Origin: Promethearchaeota archaeon Loki_b31
Lineage (GTDB): Archaea > Asgardarchaeota > Lokiarchaeia > Sigyniarchaeales > SOKP01
Length of the DNA: 47,185 bases
Reading direction: 5' to 3'
NCBI GenBank assembly: GCA_005222975.1
Contig: NJBI01000026.1
Span: 1-47,185, forward strand
How positions within the stretch are numbered: the stretch's first letter is position 1; every line of letters begins with the position of its first letter. The translations under genes and the position numbers were made by a program. The notes beneath the pieces were generated by a model, which did no database searches, was not told the origin of the DNA, and saw only the letters and a list, made by a program, of their open reading frames with translations. Below are positions 32,871 through 36,440 of the stretch, in pieces.

Positions 32871-33617
32871 CTACTCTTCACTTGTTATCTTACCATCTTC
32901 AAAAATTATGACTCGATTTGCAAGTTTTATTAAAAAATCGTCGTGTGTTGCTATAATAATCGTTTTACCATCCTTTTTCATATCATTAAAGAGATCTCGT
33001 ATAAACATACTTGTATTTTTATCGAGGTTGGCTGTAGGCTCATCTGCCAAAATAATTGGAGGATTGTTTGCTAACGCTCTTGCTATTGCTACCCTCTGTT
33101 GTTCACCAGCCGAAAGTTGAAATGGTAAGTGTTCTCTTCTATCCCCTAAACCTATTTTTTTCAATAAACTTACTGCTTTCTCTCTTTGCTCTTTTAGGCT
33201 CATTCCAGCTAAATTCATTGGGAACATCACATTTTCTTCAGCAGTTAAAGTGCTAATAAGATTATAGTTTTGAAAAACGAATCCTGTATTAATTAATCTA
33301 AATAGAGAGAGTGATTCTTCATGTAAATCGGTAATTTTTACCCCATTTGAAAAAATCGTGCCTTCGTTAGGAGAATCTAACCCTCCAATTAAATTTAGTA
33401 AAGTAGTTTTACCTGCTCCTGACGGACCTTTAAGAACGATGAAATCTCTCTCTTTTATTTTCAGATTTACATCATATACGGCTTTTACAATAAAATCTCC
33501 AATTTCATAATTTTTGTATAAATTTTTAGCTAAGATTACAATGTTTTCCTCTCTAATTTCGTTTATAATATCGATATCCTCTAATTCAGTAGGCTCTTCA
33601 AGAAAATCTTTATCCAT
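32871..33617 (-). CDS. LolD/MacB-family ABC transporter ATP-binding protein
   Basis: GPSGAGKTT, GFVFQNYNLI, LSAGEQQRV, ILADEPTANLD, ATHD. Confidence 0.93.
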   Translation of the reverse strand: MDKDFLEEPTELEDIDIINEIREENIVILAKNLYKNYEIGDFIVKAVYDVNLKIKERDFIVLKGPSGAGKTTLLNLIGGLDSPNEGTIFSNGVKITDLHEESLSLFRLINTGFVFQNYNLISTLTAEENVMFPMNLAGMSLKEQREKAVSLLKKIGLGDRREHLPFQLSAGEQQRVAIARALANNPPIILADEPTANLDKNTSMFIRDLFNDMKKDGKTIIIATHDDFLIKLANRVIIFEDGKITSEE

Positions 33618-33742
33618 TTTTATTTCAGCAACACATTCTTTTTATATCTCTCTTTTTTATAATCCTTAGTTATTTAAAATATTGTTCTATCGACTTCATT
33701 TTAAAACCAATATTAAATTGTGTCATTACGATCAAACAAAAG

Positions 33743-33750
33743 TTTAAATA
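33743..33750 (+). promoter_or_regulatory. Candidate archaeal TATA box with purine-rich BRE-like upstream sequence
   Basis: AAACAAAAG-TTTAAATA ending 24 nt before the 5' end of the candidate RNA stem at 33775. Confidence 0.4.
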
Positions 33751-33774
33751 TTGCCATGTTATATTTGAATATTA

Positions 33775-33901
33775 GAGGGAAAGCCGCAAATAAAAATATC
33801 CCCTAAATTTCCTAATTAAAATGGTAACGGAACTAAATTTTATCCCAAAATCTAACCTCATCTTGAGGTCAATTTCTGGCTTTCTCTCGTCTCTTCCTTT
33901 T
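33775..33901 (+). ncRNA. Candidate ~115-125-nt structured RNA of unknown family
   Basis: GAGGGAAAGCCG (33775-33786) pairs with TGGCTTTCTCTC (33877-33888) using two G-U pairs; internal hairpin ACCTCA-TCT-TGAGGT (33855-33869); pyrimidine-rich tail. Confidence 0.5.
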
Positions 33902-34088
33902 GTAAATAAAATTAAGTAATTTGTGTTATAAATTTAAAAAAATTTATTTTAGTTAAGATATTTCATTATTAAAATTACAGCAGTTTTAAACTTTTCTTAA
34001 AAAAAGTTTGAAAAAATCATTCTTATTACCCAGAATTGAAAGCTGGCAGAACTAATTCTTCAGAATTAAAGAAAAAGGGGAAAAAAAT

Positions 34089-34724
34089 TTGGATTTTGAA
34101 AAATTAACAGAATTAATAATTGAGCTAGAAGTAGATGATATTGAAGCCGCAGTGAAGGAAGCCCTAGAAGGAGATGGAAAGGATCCATTTGACATCTTAA
34201 GCGCTTTAACAAAAGGAATGGATGAAGTAGGGAAGCGATATGAAGAGAAGGAATATTATTTAACTGAGCTGGTATTAGCTGGGGAAACCATGAAAGAAGC
34301 GTTTAAAGTGCTCCAACCAGCCTTAGCTGCGTCAGACCAATCTCAAGATAAAACAAAAATAATCCTCTGCACAGTTAAGGGGGACAATCATGACATCGGA
34401 AAAAATATTTTAGGCTCATTATTATTAAGTAGTGGTTTTGAATTACATGATTTGGGGATGGATGTTGATGCAAATGTCATCGTTGATAAAGTAAAAGAAA
34501 CAGGAGCTACAATCATAGCGTTAAGTTCCCTATTGACTATGACTGTCGAACAAATTAAAAACGTTCACGAAGCTTTAAAGGCAGCAGGTCTTAGGGATAG
34601 TGTAAAATTAATCGTTGGCGGAGCTCCTTTGAATATGGAACTTGCTAAGCGGTTGGGCGCAGATGATTTCGCAGATGATGCTGTCGATGGAGTCAGGCAT
34701 ATTAAAAAGTTAGCAGGAAAATAA
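34089..34724 (+). CDS. Methyltransferase cognate corrinoid protein (MttC/MtbC/MtaC-like)
   Basis: Cap domain (GMDEVGKRYE..EYYL.EL), DxHxxG motif GDNHDIGKNI, LSSLLT, VGGAP. Confidence 0.9.
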   Translation: MDFEKLTELIIELEVDDIEAAVKEALEGDGKDPFDILSALTKGMDEVGKRYEEKEYYLTELVLAGETMKEAFKVLQPALAASDQSQDKTKIILCTVKGDNHDIGKNILGSLLLSSGFELHDLGMDVDANVIVDKVKETGATIIALSSLLTMTVEQIKNVHEALKAAGLRDSVKLIVGGAPLNMELAKRLGADDFADDAVDGVRHIKKLAGK

Positions 34725-35249: not shown

Positions 35250-36440
35250 ATGAGTATATATCTAGACAATCAGGCTGCAAGACCCGTGGACGCAAGAGTC
35301 GTGTCTGAAATGGTCCCATACTTTAATGAAAGATTTGCAAATCCAGCTTCTCTTCATTGCGATGGAGATATTGCTACAGATATTTTAGAGACATCACGAG
35401 AAAAAATTGCAAAGTTTGTAAATGCCTCTATTCCATCTGACATCCTATTTACATCTGGAGCGACCGAATCAAATAATCTGGCTTTAATAGGAGCTGCTAT
35501 GAGACAGAAGAAAAAAGGGAACCACATAATTATTTCTGAAATCGAACATATATCTATCTTAAACCTTGGGAAATATTTAGAAAGACAGGGGTTTAGAGTA
35601 AGCAGAGTTTCTGTAGATCGATTTGGTATCATTAGTTTAGATAAGCTTGAAAAGTTAATAACAGATGAGACAATTTTAATCTCAATATCAACGGCTAGTA
35701 ACGAAGTTGGCTCCCTGCAACCAACTGCTGAAATCAGTAGGATTGCTGCTGAAAAGGGGATATTATTTCATACTGACGCTGTTGCTAGTGAAAGCGTAGT
35801 TCCAATTGATGTTCAAAAAGTTCCGATAGATTTAATCACATTATCGTCTAACGATATTTACGGACCAAGAGGGGTTGGCGCGTTATACTTAAAAAAGGGA
35901 GTACGAGTTAACCCTATAATAATTGGTGGCGGTCAAGAAAGAGGTATGAGGTCAGGTTCTGAAAATATACCCGGTATCGTTGGGTTTGCTAAAGCCGCAG
36001 AGATTTTGAAGGAAGAAATGCCCAAAGAATCAGAAAATTTAAAAAAATTAAGAGATAAGTTGATTAAAGATATCTTGGAAACAATTCCTAAATCGCATTT
36101 AAACGGACATCCCGAAAAAAGACTTGCTCACAACGCACATTTTCGATTTGATTATATCGAAGGGGAATCGTTGATATTAACGCTAAAAGAACACAATATT
36201 GCTGCTGCTACAGGCTCAGCTTGTAGTTCAAAAACATTAGAGGCGTCTCATACATTAATTGCAATGGGTCTATTGCACGAAGAAGCACACGGTAGTCTAC
36301 TGGTTTCTTTAGGTAGAACTACTCGCGAGTCCGACATTGATAAGCTTATAGAAGTTTTACCAAACGAGGTAAAAAGGTTGAGAAAGTTATCTCCATTAAC
36401 GCCTCCAGAATTATTAAAAAAATATGATGAGGTAAAATAA
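35250..36440 (+). CDS. iscS: IscS/NifS cysteine desulfurase homologue with the PLP Schiff-base Lys replaced by Asp
   Basis: IYLDN, FTSGATESNN, EH.S, HTDAV, SSNDIYGPRGVG (usual SxHKxYGPKG), RSGSEN, GSACSS. Confidence 0.9.
   Translation: MSIYLDNQAARPVDARVVSEMVPYFNERFANPASLHCDGDIATDILETSREKIAKFVNASIPSDILFTSGATESNNLALIGAAMRQKKKGNHIIISEIEHISILNLGKYLERQGFRVSRVSVDRFGIISLDKLEKLITDETILISISTASNEVGSLQPTAEISRIAAEKGILFHTDAVASESVVPIDVQKVPIDLITLSSNDIYGPRGVGALYLKKGVRVNPIIIGGGQERGMRSGSENIPGIVGFAKAAEILKEEMPKESENLKKLRDKLIKDILETIPKSHLNGHPEKRLAHNAHFRFDYIEGESLILTLKEHNIAAATGSACSSKTLEASHTLIAMGLLHEEAHGSLLVSLGRTTRESDIDKLIEVLPNEVKRLRKLSPLTPPELLKKYDEVK

What the first reader, a model, noticed from the sequence alone, without database searches (positions are those of the whole stretch)
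33743..33901. Candidate stand-alone small RNA with a 12-bp closing stem, internal hairpin and Sm-site-like motif
Seen: TATA-like box ending 24 nt before a 12-bp 5'/3' stem (33775-33786 with 33877-33888; G-U pairs favour the + strand), a weakly structured ~70-nt loop with repeated CCC/CCT-AA tracts, a 6-bp hairpin, then AAUUUCUGG (33871-33879) and a pyrimidine tail. Established: eukaryotic Sm sites follow RAU(3-6)GR-like patterns next to hairpins, and archaeal SmAP proteins bind U-rich RNA; a closing stem around a large loop also recalls Y and vault RNAs. Inference: an unannotated ncRNA, or a 5' leader for the corrinoid-protein gene 190 nt downstream. The Sm-like match is short, partly inside the stem, and could be chance.
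Basis: partly seen in the sequence, partly recalled or inferred. Interest (0 to 1): 0.7.

Follow-up and report, generated by a model that had tools for sequence, protein, structure and literature searches.

The report
Conserved small RNA gene in Lokiarchaeia-type archaea
This is a real, stand-alone gene for a structured RNA of about 130 nt, conserved in one family of Asgard (Promethearchaeota) archaea; its invariant C-rich core is antisense to the ribosome-binding site of MFS transporter genes in related genomes, so it is most likely a trans-acting regulatory small RNA rather than an Sm-type or Y/vault-type RNA.

Summary
The TATA box, the 12-bp closing stem, the 6-bp hairpin and the pyrimidine/U tail are all present, and the + strand folds better than shuffles (z -3.3).

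The element is a single-copy gene found in 111 of 131 genomes of one GTDB family of Promethearchaeota and in 0 of 19 genomes of its sister families. On 51 homologues, 88.6% of cells pair, 21 of 23 pairs show double changes, and the covariation score is 0.46 against 0.08-0.15 for slid controls.

It is autonomous. The promoter and the oligo-T tract are conserved. The gene is inverted in place in four genomes. It persists where the corrinoid gene is missing, and one genus has an empty site.

The "Sm site" is the 3' strand of the inner closing helix and it covaries, so it is not a single-stranded Sm site. There is no Rfam match, no TROVE gene and no conserved ORF.

The invariant core is AAUAUCCCCUAAUUUCCUAAUUAAAUGGUAAC. 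Its reverse complement sits 3-8 nt before the start codon of 14 MFS transporter genes in 9 genomes, with up to 24 contiguous bp. The best reading is therefore an anti-RBS small RNA.

No target was found in the window's own genome, and no RNA-seq was available. First readers of this scan flagged look-alike elements in three other genomes.

The parts
33736..33750 (+). Archaeal promoter: purine-rich BRE-like ACAAAAG (33736-33742) plus TATA box TTTAAATA (33743-33750)
   Evidence: AAAGTTTA[T/A]ATA is conserved in all homologues. It starts 29-32 nt upstream of the conserved AGAGGG 5' end (alignments).
33774..33901 (+). Predicted transcript, about 128 nt (inferred start at A33774/G33775, inferred end in the U-tract)
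   Evidence: Start and end are inferred from the TATA-box spacing and the oligo-T tract. The covariance model matches 33772-33903 at 146.6 bits (R1) and 130 bits (R2). No RNA-seq was available.
33775..33786 (+). P1a, 5' strand of the 12-bp closing stem (all purine except CC)
   Evidence: Helices 1-2 have double changes at every pair.
33877..33888 (+). P1a, 3' strand of the closing stem
33788..33791 (+). P1b, 5' strand of the inner closing helix (AAAU)
   Evidence: Helix 3 is 98% paired, and one of its pairs reads AU:19 and UA:18.
33872..33875 (+).
33794..33828 (+). Invariant, mostly unpaired core AAAUAUCCCCUAAAUUUCCUAAUUAAAAUGGUAAC. It holds two CCUAAUU-type repeats; the second can form a small UCCU-loop hairpin.
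   Evidence: Invariant columns. It is antisense to the RBS regions of MFS genes in relatives.
33837..33851 (+). P2 hairpin (33837-33841 with 33847-33851) presenting an AUCCC loop. The loop is absent or replaced in genus g21.
   Evidence: Helix 4 (88.7% paired, 3 pairs with double changes). One search shows the g21 variants.
33855..33869 (+). P3 hairpin ACCUCA-UCU-UGAGGU
   Evidence: In helix 5 all 5 pairs have double changes (for example CG:31, UA:12).
33889..33901 (+). Pyrimidine-rich 3' tail ending in an oligo-U terminator (U4 here, U5-U9 in most homologues)

Best explanation
This is an independently transcribed, trans-acting regulatory small RNA of about 128 nt in this genome and 125-185 nt in relatives. 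A long closing helix (P1a/P1b) formed by the 5' and 3' ends, plus two small hairpins, holds an invariant C/U-rich stretch open. The consensus of that stretch is AAUAUCCCCUAAUUUCCUAAUUAAAUGGUAAC. The proposal is that this stretch base-pairs with the translation-initiation region of target mRNAs (an AGGGGAU Shine-Dalgarno-like element plus upstream AAUUAGGAAAUU), masks the ribosome-binding site, and so represses translation and/or changes mRNA stability. Shown here: conservation, covariation, autonomy of the gene, and long complementarity to the RBS of MFS transporter genes in related genomes. Inferred: transcription, the ends of the RNA, the direction of regulation, and the targets in this particular genome. 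The 3' stem plus U-tail would be the natural site for an SmAP/Lsm protein if one takes part.
For: 1. Real structured RNA. On 51 homologues, 88.6% of cells are paired against 44-65% for slid controls. 21 of 23 pairs have double changes. The covariation score is 0.456 against 0.08-0.15 for slid controls, and 0 of 500 shuffles reach it. Every homologue folds on its own with a 16-22 bp closing helix whose inner half differs completely in sequence between lineages.

2. Autonomous gene. The TATA box sits at a fixed distance and the oligo-T tract is conserved. There is one copy per genome in 111 of 131 family genomes and none in 19 sister-family genomes. The gene is inverted in place in G010, G018, G020 and G054. 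It is retained where the corrinoid gene is absent. Genus g18 has an empty site.

3. Not coding. Reading from the only shared ATG gives peptides of 3-55 aa with nothing conserved beyond MVT.

4. Target lead. Across 61 family genomes, 0-1-mismatch copies of the reverse-complement 20-mer occur only at the sRNA genes and at other loci in genus g21; the seven of those other sites that I fetched all lie just upstream of MFS genes. In all, 14 MFS genes (PF07690/PF05977) in 9 genomes (8 from genus g21, 1 from the window's own genus) carry the motif ending 3-8 nt before the start codon, often in tandem polycistronic arrays. In G074 the pairing is 24 contiguous bp at -35.2 kcal/mol, against -8.6 +/- 3.0 for shuffles.

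5. RNA-level logic. In G053, G067, G086 and G088 the sRNA core is split by a self-folding hairpin while the mRNA site stays contiguous. That keeps the two half-sites adjacent in the RNA but would break up a DNA operator.

6. Precedent. The archaeal sRNAs sRNA41 and sRNA154 mask ribosome-binding sites, sRNA41 within polycistronic mRNAs (PMC5867862).
Against: No expression data: no RNA run holds the stretch. In the window's own genome the single MFS homologue (C14, 47-48% identity) shows only weak, interrupted complementarity, and no other convincing target was found. The core nevertheless stays invariant there, so the MFS genes cannot be the only constraint, or perhaps not the main one. A 32-nt invariant stretch is longer than a typical seed and would also fit a protein-binding platform. 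The MFS complementarity could be a by-product of a past duplication or inversion of the core rather than a working interaction. A crude survey suggests Shine-Dalgarno use is infrequent in this genome (GGAGG upstream of about 3% of long ORFs). The covariance-model alignment leans towards the modelled structure.
Confidence: 0.55

Rival explanations
1. The RNA is a protein-binding or scaffold RNA (a decoy or RNP component). The invariant core, with its tandem CCUAAUU repeats and C-rich loops, would be a platform for an RNA-binding protein such as a KH-domain, SmAP or other protein, and the closing helix would only stabilise it.
For: The 32-nt invariant stretch is longer than usual seeds. The motif is a tandem repeat. 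Optional hairpins are tolerated between sub-motifs, as in junction-type RNAs. The core stays invariant in genomes where no complementary mRNA was found. Three LSM-domain genes are present in the genome.
Against: No partner protein is indicated by gene neighbourhood; the flanks are an ABC ATPase/FtsX pair, a corrinoid protein and Fe-S genes. This reading does not explain why the exact reverse complement sits on the RBS of 14 MFS genes.
Confidence: 0.2
2. The RNA is a cis-acting 5' leader or riboswitch, for example cobalamin-responsive, for the downstream corrinoid-protein gene.
For: It lies about 190 nt upstream of a B12-binding protein gene in the same orientation in this window.
Against: Rfam gives no riboswitch match. 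The orientation is inverted relative to the corrinoid gene in four genomes. The RNA is kept in genus g15, where the corrinoid gene is absent from the locus. It has a conserved oligo-T end, and a separate conserved promoter-like block lies between it and the gene.
Confidence: 0.03
3. The RNA is an Sm-class, Y-RNA-like or vault-RNA-like RNP RNA. SmAP would bind AAUUUCUGG, or a Ro- or MVP-type protein would bind the closing stem.
For: There is a closing stem formed by the 5' and 3' ends, a pyrimidine-rich loop and a U-rich 3' end. LSM genes are present.
Against: The proposed Sm site is base-paired and covaries, and its sequence is not conserved (CCUACUCCCG, GCUUUUCUCG and others). No TROVE gene was found. 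No Vault-repeat gene was found, but the positive control for that search was also silent, so it is uninformative. The conservation pattern is an invariant loop with a variable inner stem.
Confidence: 0.04
4. The conserved core is a DNA-level element, namely an operator for a transcription factor that is shared by this locus and the MFS promoters, and the transcript is incidental.
For: The same 20-mer occurs at two kinds of loci in either orientation.
Against: Hairpin insertions of 24-28 nt split the motif in four sRNA genes. The helices around it covary at the RNA level and include strand-specific G-U pairs. In the MFS genes the motif overlaps the SD/start region inside polycistronic arrays, not promoter positions.
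Confidence: 0.04
5. The element is a MITE or other mobile-element remnant with terminal inverted repeats, or a small protein gene.
For: It has 12-bp inverted termini, and this window contains a 32-aa ORF.
Against: It is single-copy in the genome and syntenic across a family. The 'TIRs' show compensatory changes. The ORF is not conserved.
Confidence: 0.02

Closest known systems
Methanosarcina mazei sRNA41 and sRNA154 (archaeal trans-encoded sRNAs that mask ribosome-binding sites; PMC5867862)
   Same: An intergenic, independently transcribed archaeal sRNA. It is lineage-restricted. It exposes conserved anti-RBS sequence from a stable fold. The proposed targets include RBSs inside polycistronic mRNAs, which here are the tandem MFS arrays.
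   Different: No sequence or Rfam relationship. It comes from a different phylum (Promethearchaeota). Complementarity is much longer (up to 24 bp). The architecture is a closing helix around the seed rather than seeds in terminal loops only. Nothing here has been tested experimentally.
Bacterial C-rich anti-SD sRNAs such as RsaE/RoxS (from my own knowledge, not tested here)
   Same: Several unpaired or loop-displayed C-rich motifs (UCCCCU, UCCU, AUCCC) that could pair with G-rich Shine-Dalgarno elements. The RNA ends in a stem plus U-tail.
   Different: Unrelated sequence and domain of life. The conserved stretch extends well beyond the C-rich motif. The archaeal promoter and terminator are of a different kind.
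Y RNAs and vault RNAs
   Same: About 100-130 nt long, with the 5' and 3' ends forming a long stem around a pyrimidine-rich internal region, and an oligo-U 3' end.
   Different: No Ro/TROVE gene was found in the genome. No Rfam match. Here the loop is invariant and the inner stem varies.
Sm-class snRNAs and SmAP-bound archaeal RNAs
   Same: U-rich tracts next to hairpins. Lsm genes are present.
   Different: The candidate Sm site is helical and covaries. The only plausible SmAP site is the 3' oligo-U tail, which is generic.

Membership tests
Trans-encoded base-pairing (anti-RBS) sRNA | Own transcription unit, separate from its targets | tested here: met
   The TATA box sits at a fixed distance and the oligo-T end is conserved. 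The gene is inverted in place in four genomes. Transcription itself is inferred, not observed.
Trans-encoded base-pairing (anti-RBS) sRNA | Conserved accessible seed within a stable fold | tested here: met
   The 32-nt core is invariant and is flanked by covarying helices.
Trans-encoded base-pairing (anti-RBS) sRNA | Complementarity to the translation-initiation regions of mRNAs encoded elsewhere | tested here: inconclusive
   Met in 9 related genomes: 14 MFS genes with 16-24 nt complementarity ending 3-8 nt before the start codon. Not found convincingly in the window's own genome.
Trans-encoded base-pairing (anti-RBS) sRNA | Demonstrated regulation of target translation or stability | not testable with these tools
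   Needs experiments.
Sm-class RNA | Single-stranded RAU(3-6)GR Sm site flanked by stem-loops and conserved in sequence | tested here: not met
   33872-33875 pair with 33788-33791 and 33877-33879 lie in P1. Helix 3 is 98% paired and covaries. The sequence varies between lineages.
Y RNA | A Ro60/TROVE partner encoded in the genome | tested here: not met
   PF05731 was not found in G000 (92% complete). The positive controls did respond.
Y RNA | Match to the Rfam Y RNA models | tested here: not met
   No Rfam match at gathering score or at E <= 10.
Vault RNA | Major vault protein encoded in the genome | tested here: inconclusive
   PF01505 was not found, but no control genome responded either.
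Cobalamin or other riboswitch / 5' leader | Fixed position and orientation upstream of the regulated gene, and a known aptamer | tested here: not met
   No Rfam match. The orientation flips. The RNA is present without the corrinoid gene.
MITE / mobile element | Multiple dispersed copies | tested here: not met
   Single copy in G000. As a rule one covariance-model hit per genome. The second hit in G148 lies inside the FtsX ORF.
C/D-box or H/ACA guide RNA, tRNA | Box motifs or a cloverleaf | tested here: not met
   No Rfam match. ARAGORN finds none. No C/D or ACA boxes are visible in the conserved columns.

The most novel reading that the evidence does not exclude
This would be the first defined riboregulator family of Asgard archaea: a family-wide sRNA whose invariant core is a modular antisense surface. 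The half-sites stay adjacent across optional self-folding hairpins and would form three-way junctions with targets. It would control transporter expression (MFS and possibly other genes), perhaps with an SmAP protein acting as a chaperone on the 3' U-tail, which would be an Hfq-like sRNA system in the closest prokaryotic relatives of eukaryotes. A more radical reading is that the invariant core serves an RNP of unknown function and the MFS pairing is secondary.
Probability: 0.2. Interest if true: 0.7.

Novelty: new member of a known kind. Interest (0 to 1): 0.5.

Why it matters
I found no regulatory RNA described for Asgard/Promethearchaeota archaea in the literature I could search. This element gives a concrete gene defined by a covariance model, present in more than 110 genomes, with strong covariation and a testable target class (the ribosome-binding sites of MFS transporter genes). 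It is therefore an entry point for post-transcriptional regulation, and for asking whether Lsm/SmAP proteins act as sRNA chaperones, in the lineage closest to eukaryotes. It also removes a tempting but wrong snRNA-like or Sm-site reading.

Tried and rejected
1. Rfam at gathering score and at E <= 10 returned only chance-level hits. ARAGORN found no tRNA.

2. RNAalifold on the plain MAFFT alignment found almost nothing, because the stem registers were misaligned. I replaced it with covariance-model alignments.

3. Expression: no RNA holder was listed for the stretch. Laying four marine-sediment RNA or metatranscriptome runs at 80% likeness put nothing on it. This says nothing either way about expression.

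4. A genome-wide duplex-energy scan was too slow and was dominated by AU-rich noise, so I abandoned it.

5. Testing complementarity to rRNA was not possible. The rRNA models found nothing usable in G000 or G116, and the MAG holds only a 16S fragment at a contig end.

6. Exact-complement and RBS-restricted searches in G000 gave only 13-16-nt matches of chance size. These were a C34 5' end, two C78 sites and a C96 RBS.

7. A recurrent 3-mismatch hit, AAUU..GAAAUUAUGGGAUA, turned out to be a conserved coding motif (IKKLWD) and not an RBS. The G012:C59 hit is also coding.

8. A search for sites matching the window-type core, which has an extra A, in G000, G021, G005, G017 and G012 gave background only. 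One search failed with a tool error and was repeated.

9. The second covariance-model hit in G148 lies inside the FtsX ORF and is spurious.

10. The NCBI labels 'Thorarchaeota', 'Hodarchaeota' and 'Hermodarchaeota' on some holders do not show a wider distribution.

11. Four pattern hits in bacterial or Woesearchaeota records have no covariance-model support and are chance matches.

Full report
**Observation**

- TTTAAATA lies at 33743-33750.
- A 12-bp helix joins 33775-33786 (GAGGGAAAGCCG) to 33877-33888 (UGGCUUUCUCUC). Two of its pairs are G-U and would be C-A on the other strand.
- A 6-bp hairpin forms at 33855-33869.
- AAUUUCUGG lies at 33871-33879, followed by a pyrimidine tail that ends in U4.

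The + strand folds to -26.4 kcal/mol (z = -3.27, 0 of 200 shuffles as good). The - strand is weaker (z = -1.95). The MFE also extends the closing stem inward: AAAU (33788-33791) pairs with AUUU (33872-33875).

The element lies in a 470-nt AT-rich spacer between two divergent genes. One is an ABC ATPase (32871-33617, - strand, next to an FtsX-type permease). The other is a B12-binding corrinoid protein (34089-34724, + strand), followed by TusA, a class-V aminotransferase and NifU.

**Not a known family, not repeated, not coding**

- Rfam gives nothing at gathering score, and only chance-level hits at E <= 10.
- There is no tRNA.
- The stretch is single-copy in the 3.5-Mb genome.
- The window has a 32-aa ORF starting at the ATG of AUGGUAAC. 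In 51 homologues the same ATG gives peptides of 3 to 55 residues with nothing shared beyond MVT.

**Conservation**

BLAST against relatives found the spacer element in the genomes of the same genus at 72-94% identity. The fetched loci align over a promoter block, the RNA and an oligo-T tract.

I built a covariance model from nine close homologues (R1) and a broader one (R2). Together they find, as a rule, one hit per genome in 111 of 131 genomes of the GTDB family, and none in 19 genomes of three sister families of the same order.

I also scanned 185,579 species genomes for the exact core pattern. It returned 40 records, and 36 of them are confirmed by the model. Nearly all of those are titled Promethearchaeota or Promethearchaeia. 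The four bacterial or Woesearchaeota hits have no model support.

A few confirmed records carry other Asgard labels or, in one case, a bacterial label.

Two genera differ from the rest. Genus g13 has a divergent homologue whose core reads AUAUCCCUUUAUUUCUAAUUA. Genus g18 has the ABC and corrinoid genes side by side with no RNA gene between them, which is an empty site.

**Structure and covariation**

Each homologue, folded on its own, forms a 16-22 bp closing helix from its two ends. The outer half is nearly constant (GAGRGRAAG / CUUYCYCUC, purine strand against pyrimidine strand). The inner half differs completely between lineages. Examples:
- AGCCG.CAAAU / AUUUC.UGGCU
- CGG.CGAGUA / UACUC.CCG
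- UCGAGAAAA / UUUUCUCGA
- ACCAA.AAAAGC / GCUUUU.GUUGGU

On the 51-sequence model alignment:
- 88.6% of cells pair, against 44-65% when partners are slid by 1-3 columns.
- 21 of 23 pairs show changes on both sides.
- The covariation score is 0.456, against 0.08-0.15 for slid controls.
- None of 500 shuffles reaches the observed values on four of the five measures (1 of 500 on the fifth).

All five helices contribute. The caveat is that a model-fitted alignment leans towards the modelled structure. The slid controls and the independent single-sequence folds argue that the signal is real.

G-U pairs are frequent in P1 (for example GU:11 and GU:10 at two pairs), which fits transcription of the + strand.

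**The 'Sm site'**

AUUU of AAUUUCUGG is the 3' strand of the inner closing helix. That helix is 98% paired, and one of its pairs reads AU:19 and UA:18. UGG belongs to the 12-bp stem. In other lineages the same position reads CCUACUCCCG, GCUUUUCUCG or CCUUUUCCCG, always complementary to the 5' strand. It is therefore not a single-stranded, sequence-conserved Sm site.

Three LSM-domain genes do exist in the genome. If an SmAP protein binds this RNA, the generic 3' U-tail is the likely place.

No TROVE/Ro gene was found, and the positive controls responded. A Vault-repeat search was blank, but its control was silent too, so it is uninformative.

**Autonomy**

- The TATA box (TTTA[T/A]ATA, preceded by AAAG) starts 29-32 nt before the conserved AGAGGG in all homologues. 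That places the start at about A33774/G33775, which is the first base of the closing helix.
- Every homologue ends in a pyrimidine-rich tail and an oligo-T tract.
- In G010, G018 and G020 (same genus) and in G054 (another genus), the RNA gene lies on the opposite strand relative to the same flanking genes.
- In genus g15 the corrinoid gene is missing from the locus and the RNA is followed directly by tusA.

These facts exclude a leader or riboswitch for the corrinoid gene and show a self-contained gene. The constant neighbour is the ABC ATPase/FtsX pair. Whether that adjacency is functional or just conserved synteny is open.

**The core**

Between the helices lies a stretch that does not vary across genera: AAUAUCCCCUAAUUUCCUAAUUAAAUGGUAAC. 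The window and its two closest relatives carry one extra A at each of two places; in the window the core is 33794-33828.

The core contains two CCUAAUU repeats. A second conserved element, the P2 hairpin with an AUCCC loop (33837-33851), is present in most genera but replaced in g21.

Optional hairpins of 20-50 nt are inserted at four positions in different lineages. These are between P1 and the core, between CCCCUAA and AUUUCC, between AAUUAA and AAAUGG, and after GGUAAC.

**Target lead**

I searched 61 family genomes for the reverse complement of 20 nt of the core, allowing up to 3 mismatches. The 0-1-mismatch hits were the sRNA genes themselves and a set of other loci, all in genus g21 and often spaced about 1.3 kb apart. 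The reversed-pattern control tallied no more matches per genome than the 3-mismatch background of the forward search.

These other loci do not match the RNA model beyond the motif. The motif lies on the sense strand of genes for MFS transporters (PF07690/PF05977). These genes are often tandem paralogues separated by about 45-55 nt and sit beside an M29 peptidase.

In total, 14 MFS genes in 9 genomes carry (A)AAUUAGGAAAUUAGGGGAUA with 0-4 mismatches, ending 3-8 nt before the start codon. Eight genomes are from genus g21, and one is G053 from the window's own genus. AGGGGAU therefore sits where a Shine-Dalgarno element would.

In G074 the sRNA and one MFS leader can form 24 contiguous base pairs covering -25 to -1. 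The duplex energy is -35.2 kcal/mol, against -8.6 +/- 3.0 for shuffled leaders.

In G053, G067, G086 and G088 the sRNA core is interrupted by a self-folding hairpin exactly between the two half-sites, while the mRNA motif remains contiguous. At the RNA level this keeps the half-sites adjacent and would give a three-way junction. At the DNA level it would destroy an operator. This is the main reason I prefer RNA-RNA pairing over a shared DNA site.

A genome of genus g18, which lacks the RNA, has MFS homologues without the motif. That is one case only.

**Limits**

The window's genome has only one homologue of these MFS genes (C14, 47-48% identity). Its leader shows only weak, interrupted complementarity.

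Searches in G000 for other RBS-proximal complements gave matches of chance size, or matches inside coding sequence. Yet the core is invariant there. So the MFS genes cannot be the sole constraint: either other targets exist that my crude searches cannot separate from noise in a 31.5% GC genome, or a protein partner constrains the core.

No RNA-seq evidence could be obtained.

**Mechanism and odds**

I put about 0.9 on this being a real, independently expressed structured ncRNA gene.

For function:
- about 0.55 on a trans-acting antisense sRNA that masks ribosome-binding sites, with MFS transporter mRNAs as targets where they exist. This is the mode described for M. mazei sRNA41 and sRNA154 (PMC5867862).
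- about 0.2 on a protein-binding or scaffold RNA.
- the remaining rivals (leader or riboswitch, Sm/Y/vault-type RNP, DNA operator, MITE or small ORF) are each below 0.05.

**Novelty**

I found no description of Asgard regulatory RNAs in the searchable literature, and there is no Rfam family. In kind, this is a new family of a known class (trans-encoded sRNA), not a new class.

First readers of this scan flagged look-alike elements in three other genomes. Those notes were untested, but their descriptions agree with the anatomy found here.

Noticed in passing
window 33904-33973: A second conserved block lies between the RNA gene and the corrinoid gene in the same genus. It reads AAAAT-ATTTATCTTAAGTAAGATATTTTATTATTAAAT in most genomes and contains the inverted repeat ATCTTA-AG-TAAGAT (imperfect in the window). 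It is probably the corrinoid gene's promoter with an operator-like palindrome.
   Followed up: no
window 32871-33617 (- strand): Homologues of the ABC ATPase in many relatives align only from residue 30 onwards. The true start may therefore be an internal codon about 29 codons downstream of the ATG at 33617.
   Followed up: no
L118-L123 (G088, G086, G074, G093, G050, G083): In genus g21 there are tandem arrays of two to three paralogous MFS_1/MFS_3 transporter genes beside an M29 aminopeptidase. Within the arrays, genes carrying the sRNA-complementary leader alternate with paralogues that have an ordinary GGAGG-type leader.
   Followed up: partly
L070, L071, L086, L092, L096, L101: The NCBI record titles disagree with the GTDB placement used by the tools. 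Where checked, the model score or contig identity shows that records titled Thorarchaeota, Hermodarchaeota, Hodarchaeota or Nanopelagicaceae bacterium belong to the same family, and in two cases the same genus, as the window.
   Followed up: partly
L108 (G042) and L178 (G063), genus g13: These carry a divergent homologue of the RNA. The closing helix and the oligo-T tract are kept, but the core has changed to AUAUCCCUUUAUUUC(C)UAAUUAUUUGA. It is a natural variant that could help define which core positions matter.
   Followed up: partly
G000 contig C92, about 35576-35675; G116: The MAG holds only a fragment of 16S rRNA at a contig end. The Rfam archaeal SSU and LSU models found no rRNA in a single-contig relative (G116) either. 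The cause may be introns or expansion segments, masking, or limits of the search.
   Followed up: no
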